Below are positions 1-12,000 of a stretch of DNA of 57,630 nucleotides, piece by piece. Positions within the stretch are counted from its first letter, which is position 1; each line of letters opens with the position of its first letter. Made by a program: the position numbers. Source of the DNA: Myxococcales bacterium (GTDB taxonomy: Bacteria > Myxococcota_A > UBA9042); the NCBI GenBank assembly GCA_037441385.1, contig JBBISH010000027.1:1-57630 (forward strand). Reading direction: 5' to 3'.

Positions 1-3000
1 GCAACCGTCGCAGCCAAGTCCCCCCAAACCACCCTGCCCGCTCGTGATTTGAACCCAGCATCGCACCGCTCCCCGGATCCCTGTTCGCGGTTGAGCAGCA
101 GTTCAGACAGGCCGAACAGGAGCAAATCAGGTGGGACCCGCATGACCTGACCCACCGGAGGGCCCAGCGCGGGCCAGTGAGGACGCCATGGAGTTGCCGC
201 AGTTGCCCCGTCGCCGCTGGTCCAACGCTGCCGTGCGGCTGGCGGCGTTGCTCGCCCTGGCCTCGGCAGGTGCGCCCGGTTGCCTGCAGCTCACGCCCAA
301 GACCGCCCAGACGGCGGCCACCGAAGAGCCCGTAGAAGAAGAGGATATCGCCACCGAAGAGGACCAACAGGCGCCCGCGGCCGATGCGCTGGTCGACACA
401 GCGGCGCCCAGCGACGTGGTGGCACCGGCTGAAGTCGACGCAGGTCCCGACAGCCCGGATGCGACGGATGCAACTGCAGATTTGGCGGAAGACGGCGGCG
501 CTGGCAGCCCAGACACTGGCGAAGACACCCCGGTCGAGGACGCGGGCGGAGAGGTCGGCGCGGCCGGCGATGCGACCGCATCCGCAGACACCACAGCCAA
601 TTGCGCGAGTGGCTGCGACGACGGCAACGCCTGCACCCAAGACAGCTGCGTCGCGGGCACTTGCAAGTACAAGAAGCTGGGCGGCATCGATTGTGACGAT
701 GGCAACCCTTGCACGTACAACGAGTTGTGTAGCAATGGCGCCTGCGTCGGCGGACTGTCCAAGAACTGCAGCGACGGCCAGGATTGCACCCTGGACGCCT
801 GCGACCCGGCCAGCGGCTGCACCCACGTCAACCAAGATGGCGCGTGCGACGACGGCAACGTCTGCAACGGCGAGGACTCGTGTCAGGCCGGCAAGTGCGT
901 CGGGGCCGGCGCCCTGGATTGCGACGACGGCAACCCGTGCACCCAAGACACCTGCGCGAATTCCATGGGCTGCCAACACAGCAGCGGCAACGGCACCTGC
1001 GACGACGGCGACCCGTGCACCGCCGGCGACACCTGCCAAAAGGGCAGCTGCGTTGGCGGCAGCCCCACCCAGTGCGACGACGGCAACCCGTGCACGCTCG
1101 ACGGCTGCGACCCCGCTACGGGCTGCGTGGCGGTAGCCGGCCCCGAGGGGCCCTGCAACGACGGCAGCGCATGCACCACCGGCGACGCTTGCAGTCAGGG
1201 CGGGTGCGCCGGCACCCCCACCGTGTGCGTCGACCAGAATCCGTGCACCAGCGAATCCTGTGACCCGGTCAAGGGTTGCGTGTACCTGCCGCTCGCGGCC
1301 ACGGCATGCGACGACGGCAGCAGCTGCACGCAGCAAGATGCCTGCCAAAATGGCAAATGCACCGGCACGGGCGGCCCCGATTGCGACGACGGCAACCCGT
1401 GCACCGACGATGGCTGCAGCCCCCAAACCGGCTGCAGTCACAAGTTCAACACGGCCGCGTGCGAAGATGGCGAACCTTGCACCACCGGCGATACCTGCGC
1501 CGCGGGGACCTGCACGGCCGGAACTCCAAACCTGTGCGACGACTCGCTCCCCTGCACCGCGGACTCGTGCGCAGCCGGCCAAGGCTGCGTCCACACCGCC
1601 AGCACCGACGCCTGCAGCGACGGCAACGAGTGCACGACCGGCGACACCTGCGCGGACGGCGCCTGCGTCGGTGGCAGCGCAGACCCGTGCAACGACAGCA
1701 ACCCGTGCACTGCCGACGGCTGTGTCCCCGGCAAGGGCTGCACGCATCAGGCAACCCCGGCCAAGAGCTGCGACGACGGCGATCCCTGCACCACCGGCGA
1801 CACCTGCCAGACCGCCAAATGCACCGCCGGGCCTGCGGCCAAGTGCGACGATGGCAACAAGTGCACCGACGACCTTTGCCTGGTCGGCTACGGCTGCGTC
1901 GCCAAGCCCAACAAGGCGACCTGCAGCGACGGCAATGCATGCACCACCGTGGACCTGTGCAGCGGCGGTAGCTGCGGCGGCAGCACGGCCCCCAACTGCG
2001 ACGACAACAACCCGTGTACCGACGACGGTTGCTCGCCCCAGACCGGTTGCAGCCACACGCCGGCCGACGGCGACTGCAGCGACGGCGACGCGTGCACGGC
2101 CCCAGACACCTGCACCAAGGGCGTCTGCGTGGGCGGTGCCGCCACCAACTGCGACGACGGCGACCCATGCACCGTAGAGAGTTGCGATGCCAAGCTGGGC
2201 TGCCTGGCCAAGGCGGGCGGGACCGCGCCGTGCGACGACGGCAATCCCTGCACCAACTCTGAGGCCTGCAAAAACGGCGCGTGCAGCGGCGGCGCGGCGA
2301 CCAACTGCAGCGATGGCAACCCCTGCACGGCCGACGCCTGCGATCCAACCACCGGTTGCACCGCCACCCCCATCAGCGCCGCGTGCTCGGACGGCGACGC
2401 TTGCACCGCGGGCGATGCGTGCCAAAACGGCAAGTGCACCAGCGCGGGCACGACCAACTGCGACGATGGCTTGGAATGCACGGACGACGCGTGCAACCCC
2501 AAGTCGGGCTGCAGCCACACCGCCAACACGCAGGCCTGCGACGACAACAACCCGTGCACCACGGGCGAGACCTGCAGCGGCGGCAGTTGTGCTGGCGGCA
2601 AACCGAGCAACTGCGACGACGGGCTCCCGTGCACGGGCGACGGTTGCACCGCCCTGGGCGGCTGTGTCCACACGCTGACCACTGGCCCCTGTAGCGACGG
2701 CAACGCCTGCACCGGCACCGATACTTGCCAGGGCGGCCAATGCGCGGGCGGCGCCCCGGTGGCCTGCAACGACGGCAAGGTCTGCACCACCGATGCCTGC
2801 GACCCCAAGCAAGGCTGCGTCTTTGCAGCCAATCAGGACGCCTGCACGGACGGCAACAGCTGCACCACCGGCGATGTCTGCACCGGCGGAACCTGCAAGC
2901 CCACGGGCAGCCAAGACTGCGACGACGGCAACGCCTGCACCAGCGATGCGTGCGTGAACGGCGTGGGCTGCACCCACGTGGGCACCAGCGGCACCTGCGA

Positions 3001-9000: not shown

Positions 9001-12000
9001 CAACGACTCTTGCACCACGGGCGTTTGCAGCGGCATCGCGGCGGCGTGCGACGACGGCAACGACTGCACGGCCGATACCTGCAATGCGCAAGGCACCTGC
9101 GCGCACGCGGTCGTGCCAGACGGGGCGGTCTGCAGCGACGGCACCGCCTGCACCGTGGGCGACACTTGCACCGCGGGGGCGTGCAAGCCCGGCACGGCCG
9201 TGGTGTGTCAAGACAATCAGACCTGCACGAGCGACGCCTGCAACCCGACCAGCGGCAACTGCGTCTACACGCCCGTGAGCAACGGCACGGCCTGCAACGA
9301 CGGCAACGAATGCACCAGCGGCGACGCCTGCAAGGCGGGCATCTGCGTATCCGGCACCGTGGGCACCTGCGACGACGGCAACGGCTGCACCAACGACGCC
9401 TGCGACAGCAAGCTGGGCTGCCTGCACACGCCCAAGACGGATGGCAGCGGCTGCAACGACAGTTCGGTCTGCACCACCAGCGACACCTGCAAAGCGGGCA
9501 GTTGCGCGGGCATCGCCGTGGTGTGCGAAGACGGCAACAGCTGCACCGTCAACGGCTGCGACGCGCTCAAGGGCTGCACGTTCACGGCCACGGCCGACGG
9601 CGCGAGCTGCAACGACAACAACGTGTGCACCCAAAACGACGTCTGCGACAAGGGCATCTGCCACGGCACCAACGTGTGCGACGACGGCAACGCGTGCACC
9701 AGCGACGCCTGCTCGGGCGGTTGTAGTCATACGAACAACACCTTCCCCTGCAGCGACGGCAACGCCTGCACCAGCGGCGACGTCTGTGCCCAAGGCAGCT
9801 GCAAGCCCGGCGTCAGTGCAGTCTGCAACGACAACGATCCCTGCACGCTCGACAGCTGTGACCCGGCCAACGGCGCCTGCGTGGCCCCACCTGCAGCCGA
9901 TGGCGCCCCGTGCAGCGATGGCAACCCCTGCACCGGCAGCGACGGCTGCCAAAGCGGGCTCTGCAAGGGCACGGTCTTGGCCAACGGCACGCCGTGCGAC
10001 GACGGCAATGCGTGCACCAGCAGCGACATCTGTATGGACGGCGGCCTCTGCCTGGGCCCTGTGCCCGCCTCGTGCGACGACGGCAACTCGTGCACGACCG
10101 ACAGCTGCGACCCGGTGGCCAAGAAGTGCGTGAATGCCCCTGCCACCGGCCCGTGCGACGACGGCAATGCGTGCACCCTGAGCGATGCGTGCACGGCCAC
10201 AGCCTGCGTAGGCACCCCGGCCAATTGCGGCGACGGCAACTCGTGCACCACCGACACCTGCGATCCCAGCAGCGGTTGCGCGCACACCAGCTTGGCGATG
10301 GGCATGTATTGCGACGATGGCAACCCGTGTTCGGGCCCCGACCGCTGCGCCCTGCAACAGGGGGTCATGACGTGCGCTGCCACCGCCCAGACCGGCTGCG
10401 ACGACAACAATGCTTGCACCACCGACACTTGCGCGGGCTCCTCGTGTACGCACTCGGCCCTGGCGGGCGGCACCGTCTGCAACGACGGCAACCTGTGCAC
10501 CACCGGCGACAACTGCCAAAACCAAGCCGGCGTCATGACTTGCATGTCCACCGGCGTGCTCAGCTGCAGCGACGGCAATCCGTGCACGCCCGACGCATGC
10601 AACGGCACGGTGGCTTGCATTGCCGACGCGGGCAACTGCGACGACAGCAACCCGTGCACTACGGACAGCTGCGGCACCTTGGGCTGTGGCCACACCTATG
10701 CCCCCGAACTCTGTGCGCAACTGCCGCTGGCCTTTAGCGAGACCTTTGACTGTGGCGACACCCAGTGGGTGTTCACGCCGGTCACCTCGGGCGCCGCCGG
10801 CAAGACCAAGGCCCAGTGGGCCATCGACGCCACGCCCGCACCGCCGGCCGCCAAGTCGCAGAGCTGCTCGCTCAACTTCAACGACGGCACGGGCACGGGC
10901 GGGCAAAATAGCGGCAGCGCCGTGAGCAACGGCACGTTCGACGCCACCGGCAAGACCAAGTTGACCTTGACCGTGCAGAGCTGGTTCGACCTGCGCACCG
11001 CCGCGGGCCTGGATCAGCGCATGATCGAGGCCTCGGCCGACGGCTTTGCCACCACGCCGGTGACCGTGACTCTAGACAACTCTGCCGCGCTGCAGACTTG
11101 GAGCCTGGTCACGGTGGACCTGACGCCCATGGCTGGCACCGTGTTCCAGATCCGCTTCCGCTTCAACGGCAAGACCGTGGACCCGGCAAGTTGGCGGAGC
11201 GGCTGGTTCGTCGACGACTTGTTGGTGGTGGCCCAGTAATACGCACCCCACCTGATTCGCACCTGTTTGGTTTCTACGAACGGCATACATCTTGCTAAAA
11301 TTACACTGAAATCAACGTCCGAGCCACAAGAGTTGCCGGCGTTTTCGAGCCACTTCGGACGGAACCGGAATAGCCCCGTTGCGGCTGGCCTCGCCCGGTT
11401 GCTGCGGCTACACTCCCCAGCGGCTGCGCCGGCGCTGCGGCCAAGGATGGGGATGCAACCGCCCGCTGTTCCAGCACATTCCGACCGCCGCTGGATCGCC
11501 CTGGCCTATGTGGCCGCAGTGCTGCTGCCAGTGGCGATTGGCTGGAAAGTGGCTGGGTTCGATCAAGTCGGCCTGGACACGCCGCGTATGGACAGCGGCG
11601 ACGTCTTGGCCCCGGCCATCGGCTTCCGCGCCATCTTGGAGCAGCCCTGGTTCATGAGCATCGCGCGTTTGGGGGCGCCCAATCAGCTCGAGCTCTACGA
11701 TTTCCCCATCATCGACAACCTGCAGCTCGCCCTGTTTTGGCCGCTGCGCTTTGTGATTCACGATTGGGTGGTGCTGTACAACGTGGCCTATCTGGTCGGT
11801 TTTGCGCTGATTGGTCTGAGCAGCTTTGGCGTGTTGCGCGCCTTGCGCGTGGGTCCCGCCCCTGCCCTGGCCGCGGCGACCTTGTTTGCCTGCCTGCCCA
11901 AGCGCTTCAGCGTGGGCCAAGCGCACTTTTCGCTCACGCAGTTCTGGCAGATCCCGCTGGCCGTGCTGGTGCTGGTCTGGCTGTGCGATCCGGACCGTCC

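What a model noticed while it worked through the whole genome (the two positions that open the first line are those of the whole stretch)
188..11239. Dictyostelium-type Cys-rich repeat expanded into ~190 exported proteins, a class signature
The 24-residue Dicty_CTDC disulfide repeat (CxDxxxCTxDxC), described from slime-mould extracellular proteins, occurs over 1,100 times in 189 genes here, 8.7% of all encoded residues; the longest is this 3,683-aa protein. Most are lipoproteins on which the repeat is joined to at least 28 other domain kinds. The expansion marks class UBA9042, a lineage without LPS.
Evidence so far: 165 genes and 1,153 Pfam hits; 189 genes, 171,716 of 1,983,963 residues, lipobox in 127 of 155 with intact start against 907 of 4,890 overall, 28 partner domains. 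Family present in 105 of 106 class genomes and 0.5% of bacteria. Phylum sample: 85-144 scored matches (cap 144; 391-2,077 candidates) in all 9 class genomes, 0-3 in 36 of 37 others, 41 in one. Paper search for the family name gave 5 papers, none on a bacterial expansion by title.
(Added by a program. Inside this text positions count along the whole contig: contig position 1 is position 1 of the stretch shown here. "Call 12" and the like, gene names such as g00115 and contig names such as C1 are that model's own, and its searches are not shown. The text may have been shortened before it was handed on; [...] marks where a part breaks off. The agent that wrote the report below was given it as the finding of a first reader that could run no searches.)

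Follow-up and report, generated by a model that had tools for sequence, protein, structure and literature searches.

The report
Cysteine-stalk lipoproteins of LPS-less myxobacteria
An uncultured group of myxobacteria-like microbes that lacks the genes for the usual outer-membrane lipopolysaccharide encodes about 160 lipid-anchored proteins built on a cysteine-rich 'slime-mould' repeat rod with varied binding tips, which may form an unstudied kind of cell coat.

Summary
The gene is real. It encodes a 3,683-aa predicted lipoprotein: acidic tether, 128 four-cysteine units and a MAM-like head. The units alternate A (Pfam Dicty_CTDC) and B (largely missed by Pfam), so the working repeat is a ~52-aa AB module. 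A same-genus orthologue is collinear and under purifying selection.

The genome has 202 repeat ORFs (82 cut by contig ends; about 160 genes), about 9% of residues; the repeats themselves are 3%. 138 of 165 with intact starts have a lipobox.

The repeat is in 107 of 107 class genomes. lpxC is in 2 of 107. The only genome with lpxB, lpxC and lptFG has the fewest repeats and branches first (moderate support).

Corrections: this is not the longest such protein, and the signature is graded. LPS-bearing outsiders reach 44 matches, and other phyla carry the repeat.

Best reading: a disulfide-stapled stalk library that displays binding domains at the cell surface, as proposed for TraA. Bolder reading: a lipoprotein coat standing in for LPS. 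The scan noted this family before in other genomes. I found no paper on the expansion.

The parts
188..11239 (+). Giant repeat lipoprotein gene, 3,683 aa
   Evidence: collinear orthologue in G031; DNA run X1 covers 30 of 30 bins with no indel listed (may be the source sample)
188..283 (+). Predicted lipoprotein signal peptide ending at Cys32
   Evidence: Basic then hydrophobic stretch then Cys. It misses my strict rule, but the Cys follows a hydrophobic stretch in the G031 and G021 homologues too
284..601 (+). Acidic low-complexity tether (aa 33-138)
   Evidence: 28 D/E against 1 K/R in 107 aa; least conserved part, 46% identity in the orthologue
614..10714 (+). Array of 128 four-Cys units in near-strict A-B alternation; two blocks (26+25 aa and 29+24 aa)
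   Evidence: 515 Cys; AF2 model of ABABAB pLDDT 95, all beta; dN/dS about 0.3 against G031
10715..11236 (+). C-terminal MAM/InhA-like beta-sandwich head (about 174 aa)
   Evidence: 13 of 18 paralogous heads match PF20773, this one does not; profile hits InhA 4yu5 E 2.6e-6; model matches meprin beta E 1.3e-6 and carbohydrate-binding modules
11453..13603 (+). Downstream YfhO/DUF6311-like membrane protein; context only, link not shown
   Evidence: Atlas scores 0.99-1.00, families on 10-17% of members; no Pfam or NCBIfam hit; single copy in the genome

Best explanation
The AB repeat is a structural spacer. Each gene encodes a membrane anchor (N-terminal lipoprotein Cys, or in a few cases a C-terminal MYXO-CTERM tag), a floppy acidic tether, a rod of small disulfide-stapled beta-hairpin modules, and one or more binding domains. 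Inferred path: Sec export, lipidation, oxidation by VKOR/DsbA-type proteins, then transfer to the outer surface, probably by the type II secretion system. About 160 such proteins hold lectin-like, MAM-like and propeller domains at different distances from the cell for attachment to particles, prey or other cells. In the window protein 64 AB modules carry one MAM-like head, and the stalk length is kept between species. Shown: sequence anatomy, counts, conservation, predicted folds, presence of the machinery. Inferred: disulfide bonding, rigidity, surface exposure, export route, ligands.
For: Anchor-tether-array-head order: lipobox in 138 of 165, tether median 64.5 aa, 90 of 120 complete ORFs have 100 aa or more after the last unit. 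MYXO-CTERM above cut-off at the ends of two repeat ORFs, C21 and C7. Heads are mainly binding folds: InhA-like MAM cluster in 19 ORFs, CylK-like propeller cluster in 24, NHL, RCC1, LamG, lamin-tail, discoidin-like, fibrinogen-like, FGE-sulfatase-like, Lcl_C, CARDB/PKD/PPC. Confident all-beta model with pTM only 0.62, as expected of a chain of small modules. Orthologue G031:C216 is collinear, 66-69% identical, dN/dS 0.28-0.33 in the stalk and 0.19 in the head; G021:C79 in another genus has a similar length. Modules within the protein are old: nucleotide identity at most 74%. Machinery in G000: BamA, LolA, VKOR-DsbA fusion, triple DsbA, gspCDEF. Precedent: Pathak 2012 (PMC3325183, passages) proposed Cys repeats as a rigid stalk in TraA and noted a resemblance to Pfam00526.
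Against: No expression or localisation data. The M. xanthus +7 Ala matrix-sorting signal (PMC3222651, passages) is not enriched: 12% against 15% in other lipoproteins. 30 of 120 complete ORFs end within 70 aa of the last unit, so their heads are internal or absent. 30 of the 57 segments scanned had no partner Pfam family. A few partners look enzymatic (CotH kinase, beta-helix). Disulfide pairing and rod length were not measured from the model. Passage of a 3,700-aa oxidised rod through a T2SS is untested.
Confidence: 0.62

Rival explanations
1. The family is, taken together, a protein coat that replaces LPS: dense, acidic, disulfide-stapled lipoproteins populate the outer leaflet and give it charge, barrier and stiffness, as surface lipoproteins do in Borrelia. 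The heads are secondary decoration. This is compatible with the best explanation and goes beyond it.
For: lpxC missing in 105 of 107 class genomes, and G146's copy is alone on a 1.6-kb contig without lpxB or lptFG. G004, the only genome with lpxB, lpxC and lptFG, has the fewest matches, 4 of 71 scored, and is sister to the other 17 class rows (SH-aLRT 82). No serine palmitoyltransferase found in G000: the best hit is below cut-off and looks like Kbl. About 15% of the other genes also carry a lipobox. A review states that B. burgdorferi lacks LPS and populates its surface with lipoproteins (PMC13721041, passage).
Against: It is one evolutionary event, so no statistics apply. G004 is placed on partial RpoC only. 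G138 lacks lpxC and lpxB yet has 11 matches. G051, G056, G081, G086 and G129 keep lpxC and lpxB and have 24-44 matches. G041, G052, G054 and G060 lack both the lpx genes and the repeat. Repeat load varies over tenfold within the class (about 26-429 candidates per Mb). Lipoproteins cannot replace a lipid leaflet, so another lipid must exist.
Confidence: 0.22
2. The proteins are shed or matrix-bound and cross-link an extracellular matrix for aggregation or biofilm, like EcmA/EcmB in the slime-mould sheath.
For: Dicty_CTDC proteins are listed as matrix proteins (PMC4931340 Table 4 and PMC9117722, passages). M. xanthus sorts lipoproteins such as FibA to its matrix (PMC3222651). Some family members have no distal head.
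Against: No +7 Ala enrichment. Varied single heads on conserved stalks suit display better than cross-linking. The one eukaryote-like protein seen (P0131) has A units only.
Confidence: 0.1
3. A fast-evolving recognition or decoy repertoire for kin recognition or escape from phages and grazers, like polymorphic TraA.
For: Many paralogues with swapped heads; TraA-like layout; contig-end overlaps at 95-99% identity over 129-225 bp show some near-identical stretches.
Against: The head of the window protein is more conserved than its stalk (72% against 66-69%; dN/dS 0.19; one species pair). Only 10 blastn matches of 150 bp or more at 85% or higher among 202 ORFs, most of them overlaps of the same DNA. 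No TIGR04201 hit.
Confidence: 0.05
4. Artefact: misassembled repeats or binned contaminants inflate a modest family.
For: 82 of 202 ORFs touch contig ends; 221 contigs; no single Logan contig spans the gene.
Against: Collinear orthologue in another species; native GC 0.672 against 0.672 and GC3 0.867 against 0.847; spread over 122 of 221 contigs; single-contig genome G187 has 69 of 71 scored matches.
Confidence: 0.01

Closest known systems
Pfam PF00526 Dicty_CTDC proteins of dictyostelids (EcmA, EcmB, PsiA/PsiF/PsiN)
   Same: The A unit scores far above the gathering cut-off; exported Cys-rich repeat proteins that carry a separate head domain (PA14 in the Psi proteins).
   Different: 6-15 genes per amoebozoan genome (PMC4931340 Table 4) against about 160 here. 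Here they are lipid-anchored and A alternates with a B unit (AB 790, BA 795, AA 132, BB 11). The one eukaryote-like protein retrieved, P0131, has 26 A and no B (its origin is inferred from its layout).
Myxococcus xanthus TraA (PA14-like head, TIGR04201 Cys repeats, MYXO-CTERM)
   Same: Head on a Cys-repeat region proposed as a rigid stalk, with a lipid-type anchor, in the same phylum by record labels. A few paralogues here end in MYXO-CTERM.
   Different: Different repeat (no NCBIfam hit on the window protein), reversed polarity (N-terminal anchor, C-terminal head), MAM-like head that is conserved rather than polymorphic, 128 units against 9, about 160 genes against 2.
Borrelia burgdorferi surface lipoproteome (LPS-less diderm)
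   Same: Outer membrane without LPS genes and a large lipoprotein complement (review passage).
   Different: Borrelia lipoproteins are not known to me as disulfide-repeat rods (recalled). Surface abundance here is not measured.
MAM domains of immune inhibitor A and meprin; carbohydrate-binding beta-sandwiches
   Same: Fold of the head.
   Different: No protease domain in this protein; 12-16% identity; ligand unknown.
Bacterial teneurin-like proteins with Dicty_CTDC N-terminal modules
   Same: Dicty_CTDC is named among the N-terminal adhesion modules of bacterial TLPs, which are SPII lipoproteins in Myxococcota (bioRxiv 10.1101/2025.11.11.687626, passages). So the repeat is already in print as a bacterial surface module.
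   Different: A legend mention only; no expansion described in the passages seen. The window protein has no YD shell or toxin domain.

Membership tests
Pfam PF00526 Dicty_CTDC | HMM score above gathering cut-off | tested here: met
   587 bits against 27; 42 stretches
Pfam PF00526 Dicty_CTDC | About 24-aa unit with C-x-D-x3-C-T-x-D-x-C core | tested here: met
   65 A units of 24-29 aa; genome-wide column frequencies
Dictyostelid-type CTDC matrix proteins | Array made of the A unit alone | tested here: not met
   Window protein alternates A and B. One G000 paralogue, C75:11322, has 8 A in tandem. The A-only rule for eukaryotes rests on P0131 and the 24-position model
TraA-type receptor | TIGR04201 repeat | tested here: not met
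   0 NCBIfam families on the window protein
TraA-type receptor | PA14-like variable head and MYXO-CTERM | tested here: not met
   Head is MAM-like and conserved; no MYXO-CTERM on C27
TraA-type receptor | Adjacent traB (OmpA-like) gene | tested here: inconclusive
   Downstream gene is YfhO/DUF6311-like; upstream is the contig end
Bacterial SPII lipoprotein | Signal peptide with lipobox Cys | tested here: met
   138 of 165 by rule. The window protein misses the strict rule, but Cys32 is kept after a hydrophobic stretch in two homologues
Bacterial SPII lipoprotein | Lipidation and surface exposure; lgt/lspA/lnt genes | not testable with these tools
   Needs experiments; lgt, lspA and lnt were not searched; LolA, BamA and T2SS are present
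InhA-like MAM domain PF20773 | HMM match of the head | tested here: inconclusive
   Window head has no hit at E<=0.05; 13 of 18 aligned paralogues hit
InhA-like MAM domain PF20773 | MAM-type beta-sandwich fold | tested here: met
   Model pLDDT 86; Foldseek meprin beta E 1.3e-6, TM 0.68
LPS-less diderm | No lipid A synthesis or Lpt export genes | tested here: met
   G000 (90.9% complete) lacks lpxC, lpxB, lptFG; lpxC in 2 of 107, lpxB in 1 of 32, lptFG in 1 of 10 class genomes
LPS-less diderm | Outer membrane retained | tested here: met
   BamA above cut-off in 4 of 5, LolA in 4 of 5, secretins in 5 of 5
Sphingolipid-substituted outer membrane (Sphingomonas type) | Serine palmitoyltransferase | tested here: inconclusive
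   NF047600 below cut-off in 5 of 5; the G000 hit reads as Kbl by a recalled motif. The model is Bacteroidota-specific and the genome incomplete
Solved repeat folds (EGF, disintegrin, Entamoeba Hgl Cys-rich arm) | Structural match of the AB module | tested here: inconclusive
   Best Foldseek E 0.01 (Entamoeba lectin), best VIA Z 2.9

The most novel reading that the evidence does not exclude
After the class's earliest-branching lineage split off, its ancestor lost LPS and rebuilt the cell surface as a lipoprotein coat. Hundreds of acidic, lipid-anchored proteins, dominated by disulfide-stapled AB-repeat rods of selected lengths (perhaps up to 200 nm; my rough estimate, not measured), form a eukaryote-like extracellular layer on a diderm with no known substitute glycolipid. 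The slime-mould repeat would then be a bacterial module that bacterivorous amoebae acquired.
Probability: 0.22. Interest if true: 0.85.

Novelty: new variant of a known kind. Interest (0 to 1): 0.6.

Why it matters
It identifies a whole uncultured bacterial class that keeps an outer membrane without detectable LPS genes and, in this genome, spends about 9% of its coding capacity and 38% of its cysteines on one family of predicted surface rods. That makes 'what covers an LPS-less diderm' testable in a new lineage, with G004 as a natural LPS-bearing comparison. It also redefines a 'slime-mould' Pfam as half of a two-unit bacterial module of unsolved structure, with 17,692 representatives at E<=1e-10 in the 50%-identity library.

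Tried and rejected
Reversed-sequence control: 51 hits because the motif is partly palindromic; replaced by shuffling.
Structure searches for the repeat: no solved relative by sequence, no Foldseek match at E<=0.001 in PDB or viral libraries, VIA best Z 2.9. This does not show a new fold.
Sorting signal: no +7 Ala enrichment, +2 Lys 1%.
Expression: no RNA holder listed; no evidence either way.
Named Dictyostelium proteins were not among the best 120 hits of an A-only query, so the comparison with eukaryotes rests on P0131 and the papers.
Direction of transfer: no tree was attempted, as 24-aa units carry too little signal.
Phylogeny: RpoC alone left G004 unplaced; G004 had no RpoB match; the bootstrap run timed out with the same placement but no supports.
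G146 as a second LPS-bearing member: rejected, since lpxC is alone on a 1.6-kb contig and the genome has 862 repeat candidates.
Link to the downstream membrane gene: the G031 contig ends too soon to test.
Recent tandem duplication as the source: rejected (38 of 196 genes adjacent to another; module identity at most 74% nt).
Literature: nine searches that ran. None listed a paper on this expansion or on LPS loss in this class. Subscription journals are not covered and no supplementary files were opened; annotation tables of MAG papers could hold counts of this domain.
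Full report
1. The observation in the window. ORF 188..11239 (+) encodes 3,683 aa with 14.1% Cys. Pfam gives one family, PF00526 Dicty_CTDC, E 2.2e-181, 42 stretches; NCBIfam gives none. Splitting at the first cysteine motif gives 127 units plus one degenerate unit. They are of two kinds. A has the core C-x-D-x3-C-T-x-D-x-C and fits the Pfam model. B has one more residue before the Asp and a tight G-x-C turn. They alternate with three true exceptions. The protein reads: signal peptide to Cys32, acidic tether, 128 units, and a head of about 174 aa. Modules within the protein are 48% identical on average and at most 74% identical in DNA, so the array is old.

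2. It is not an assembly artefact. G031, another species of the genus, has a 3,721-codon frame that aligns along the whole length with only small gaps: 66-69% identity and dN/dS 0.28-0.33 in the stalk, 72% and 0.19 in the head. G021, in another genus, has a 3,628-codon frame with the same kind of signal and head at about 50%. One DNA run covers 30 of 30 bins with no indel listed, but no contig spans the gene and the run may be the source sample.

3. The genome. 202 stop-to-stop ORFs hold 1,176 A and 1,002 B strict motifs; shuffles give 0.85. Adjacent pairs are AB 790, BA 795, AA 132, BB 11. By my crude gene caller the family is 196 of 4,667 genes and 8.9% of residues, with 38% of all cysteines, on 122 of 221 contigs, at native GC and GC3. 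The units themselves cover 56,669 residues, about 3%. 82 of 202 ORFs are cut by contig ends; 165 have intact starts and 157 intact ends, so about 160 genes is the fair number. The longest member is on C35, about 4,090 aa, not this one.

4. Anchors and heads. A start-independent lipobox rule fires in 138 of 165 intact-start ORFs and in 674 of 4,369 other genes; it fires in 35 internal against 424 N-terminal windows of 2,613 genes. Five repeat ORFs end in a MYXO-CTERM-like tail by my pattern; two of these, and an internal site in a third ORF, pass TIGR03901. Non-repeat stretches (347 of 90 aa or more) fall into clusters. I scanned 57 chosen stretches of them, not all 347: 27 had a partner Pfam family and 30 did not. 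The two largest clusters are the MAM-like sandwich (19 ORFs) and a CylK-like propeller (24 ORFs). The window head belongs to the first: 13 of 18 aligned members match PF20773 though it does not itself, the profile finds InhA and meprin, and its model (pLDDT 86) matches meprin beta and carbohydrate-binding modules. The model of three AB modules is confident (pLDDT 95, pTM 0.62, beta-hairpins only) and has no clear solved match.

5. Distribution. In a phylum sample, 49 of 99 non-class genomes match, 15 with 8 or more, 7 with 24-44; only the top 64 candidates per genome were scored. Close relatives of the window stretch come from MAGs labelled mostly Myxococcales, Myxococcota or Deltaproteobacteria (77 loci). 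An A-only query also finds proteins labelled Chitinophagales, Flavobacteriales, Binatia, Verrucomicrobiae, Myxococcaceae and Magasanikbacteria, and P0131, a PA14 + 26 A + transmembrane protein that I take to be amoebozoan from its layout. The AB profile finds 28,823 representatives at E<=0.001 and 17,692 at 1e-10. The repeat is therefore widespread in bacteria; the scale is what marks this class, and the boundary is graded.

6. The LPS claim. lpxC is found in 2 of 107 class genomes, lpxB in 1 of 32, lptFG in 1 of 10, while controls ring as expected. BamA, LolA and secretins are present, as are gspCDEF, a VKOR-DsbA fusion and a triple DsbA. G146's lpxC is an orphan on a 1.6-kb contig. G004 has all three markers on separate contigs and the fewest repeats. 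A fast RpoB+RpoC tree separates the class from 11 outsiders (SH-aLRT 97.7) and puts G004 sister to the other 17 class rows (82.2); G004 contributed partial RpoC only, and one row with a partial RpoC (G045) and one without a match (G144) were left out. Against a tight link: G138 lacks the lpx genes and has few repeats; G051, G056, G081, G086 and G129 keep them and have 24-44 matches; G041, G052, G054 and G060 lack both (these 35 outsiders were chosen by me, not drawn at random). No convincing serine palmitoyltransferase was found in G000.

7. Mechanism. The anatomy fits a library of anchored stalks that display binding domains. Shown are the layout, counts, conservation of length and head, predicted folds and the presence of export and oxidation genes. 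Inferred are two disulfides per unit (515 Cys in 128 units), an extended rod, surface exposure, T2SS export (by analogy with MYXO-CTERM proteins; bioRxiv 10.1101/2023.06.07.544157, passages) and possible Ca2+ binding by the conserved Asp residues. The M. xanthus +7 Ala signal is not enriched. A conserved head argues against TraA-like polymorphism for this gene, on one species pair. The coat-for-LPS reading is open but rests on one event.

8. What is known. Seen as passages: PMC3325183 (TraA stalk; resemblance to Pfam00526), PMC13184517 (TraA layout), PMC4931340 (6-15 CTDC proteins per dictyostelid or Physarum genome, 0 in Acanthamoeba), PMC9117722 (EcmA/B as CTDC matrix proteins), PMC8078820 (PF00526 modelled, weak structural match only), bioRxiv 10.1101/2025.11.11.687626 (Dicty_CTDC as a module of bacterial teneurin-like proteins), PMC11821767 (one UBA9042 bin; no LPS mention), PMC3222651, PMC13721041. 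Other papers were seen only as search listings. Searches listed none on this expansion. No supplements were read. Earlier notes of this scan describe the same family in other Myxococcota and CPR genomes; they are unchecked and are not counted as support.

9. Verdict. The finding is real and class-wide, with four corrections: the AB unit, the gene count, the longest protein, and a graded rather than exclusive signature. Known repeat and known layout, but an undescribed scale, a second unit type and a coincidence with LPS loss. New variant of a known kind; interest 0.6.

Noticed in passing
G000 whole genome: About 15% of genes without the repeat also carry a lipobox (674 of 4,369; internal false-positive rate about 1.3%), so the lipoprotein complement may be 700-800 genes.
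   Followed up: partly
G000 whole genome: A further 146 genes with over 6% Cys lack this repeat and use other Cys-rich repeats; the largest is 3,758 aa at C50:12830-24103. MopE-type, DUF4215, TSP3 and EGF-like repeats also occur inside family members.
   Followed up: no
window:20772-23153 (-): Second Cys-rich lipoprotein in the window, Stig1 / MXAN_6577-like.
   Followed up: partly
window:11453-13603 (+): YfhO/DUF6311-like multi-pass membrane protein directly downstream; a possible glycosyltransferase for the Ser/Thr-rich stalk (698 S+T in 3,368 aa). Link untested.
   Followed up: partly
G004 (L057, L058): Only class genome with lpxB, lpxC and lptFG; fewest repeats; earliest branch with moderate support.
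   Followed up: yes
G051, G056, G061, G086 (and G081, G066, G071, G076): A separate clade (support 100 for the four tree rows) with LPS genes and a moderate expansion, 11-44 matches.
   Followed up: partly
L006, L005 and 24 ORFs of G000: A ~390-aa propeller without a Pfam family, related to CylK (E 4.6e-17), usually followed by a last A unit and a short Cys cap.
   Followed up: partly
L077, L078 (G000:C91): RpoB (about 1,613 aa) and RpoC (1,512 aa) of this family are 100-200 aa longer than in most relatives and sit on a long branch.
   Followed up: no
L079 (G000:C65:17079-19571), L080 (G000:C92:9245-11278): VKOR-DsbA-FGE-like-thioredoxin fusion and a triple-DsbA protein: candidates for folding the Cys-rich family.
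   Followed up: partly
G000:C117:9285-16870 (-): Two overlapping repeat ORFs in different frames suggest a frameshifted member.
   Followed up: no
G000:C81:26705-27577 (+): Small repeat protein with a ubiquitin-like N-terminal sequence (by eye, recalled likeness) and a MYXO-CTERM-like tail.
   Followed up: no
window:46816-56605 (+): kdpABC-kdpD-regulator cluster preceded by a BBP2 beta-barrel porin gene; trp operon at 33934-41852 (-). Ordinary.
   Followed up: no
P0014, P0022, P0112: Homologues built mainly from B units with a dockerin-like end, labelled PF27237, a family not identified here.
   Followed up: partly
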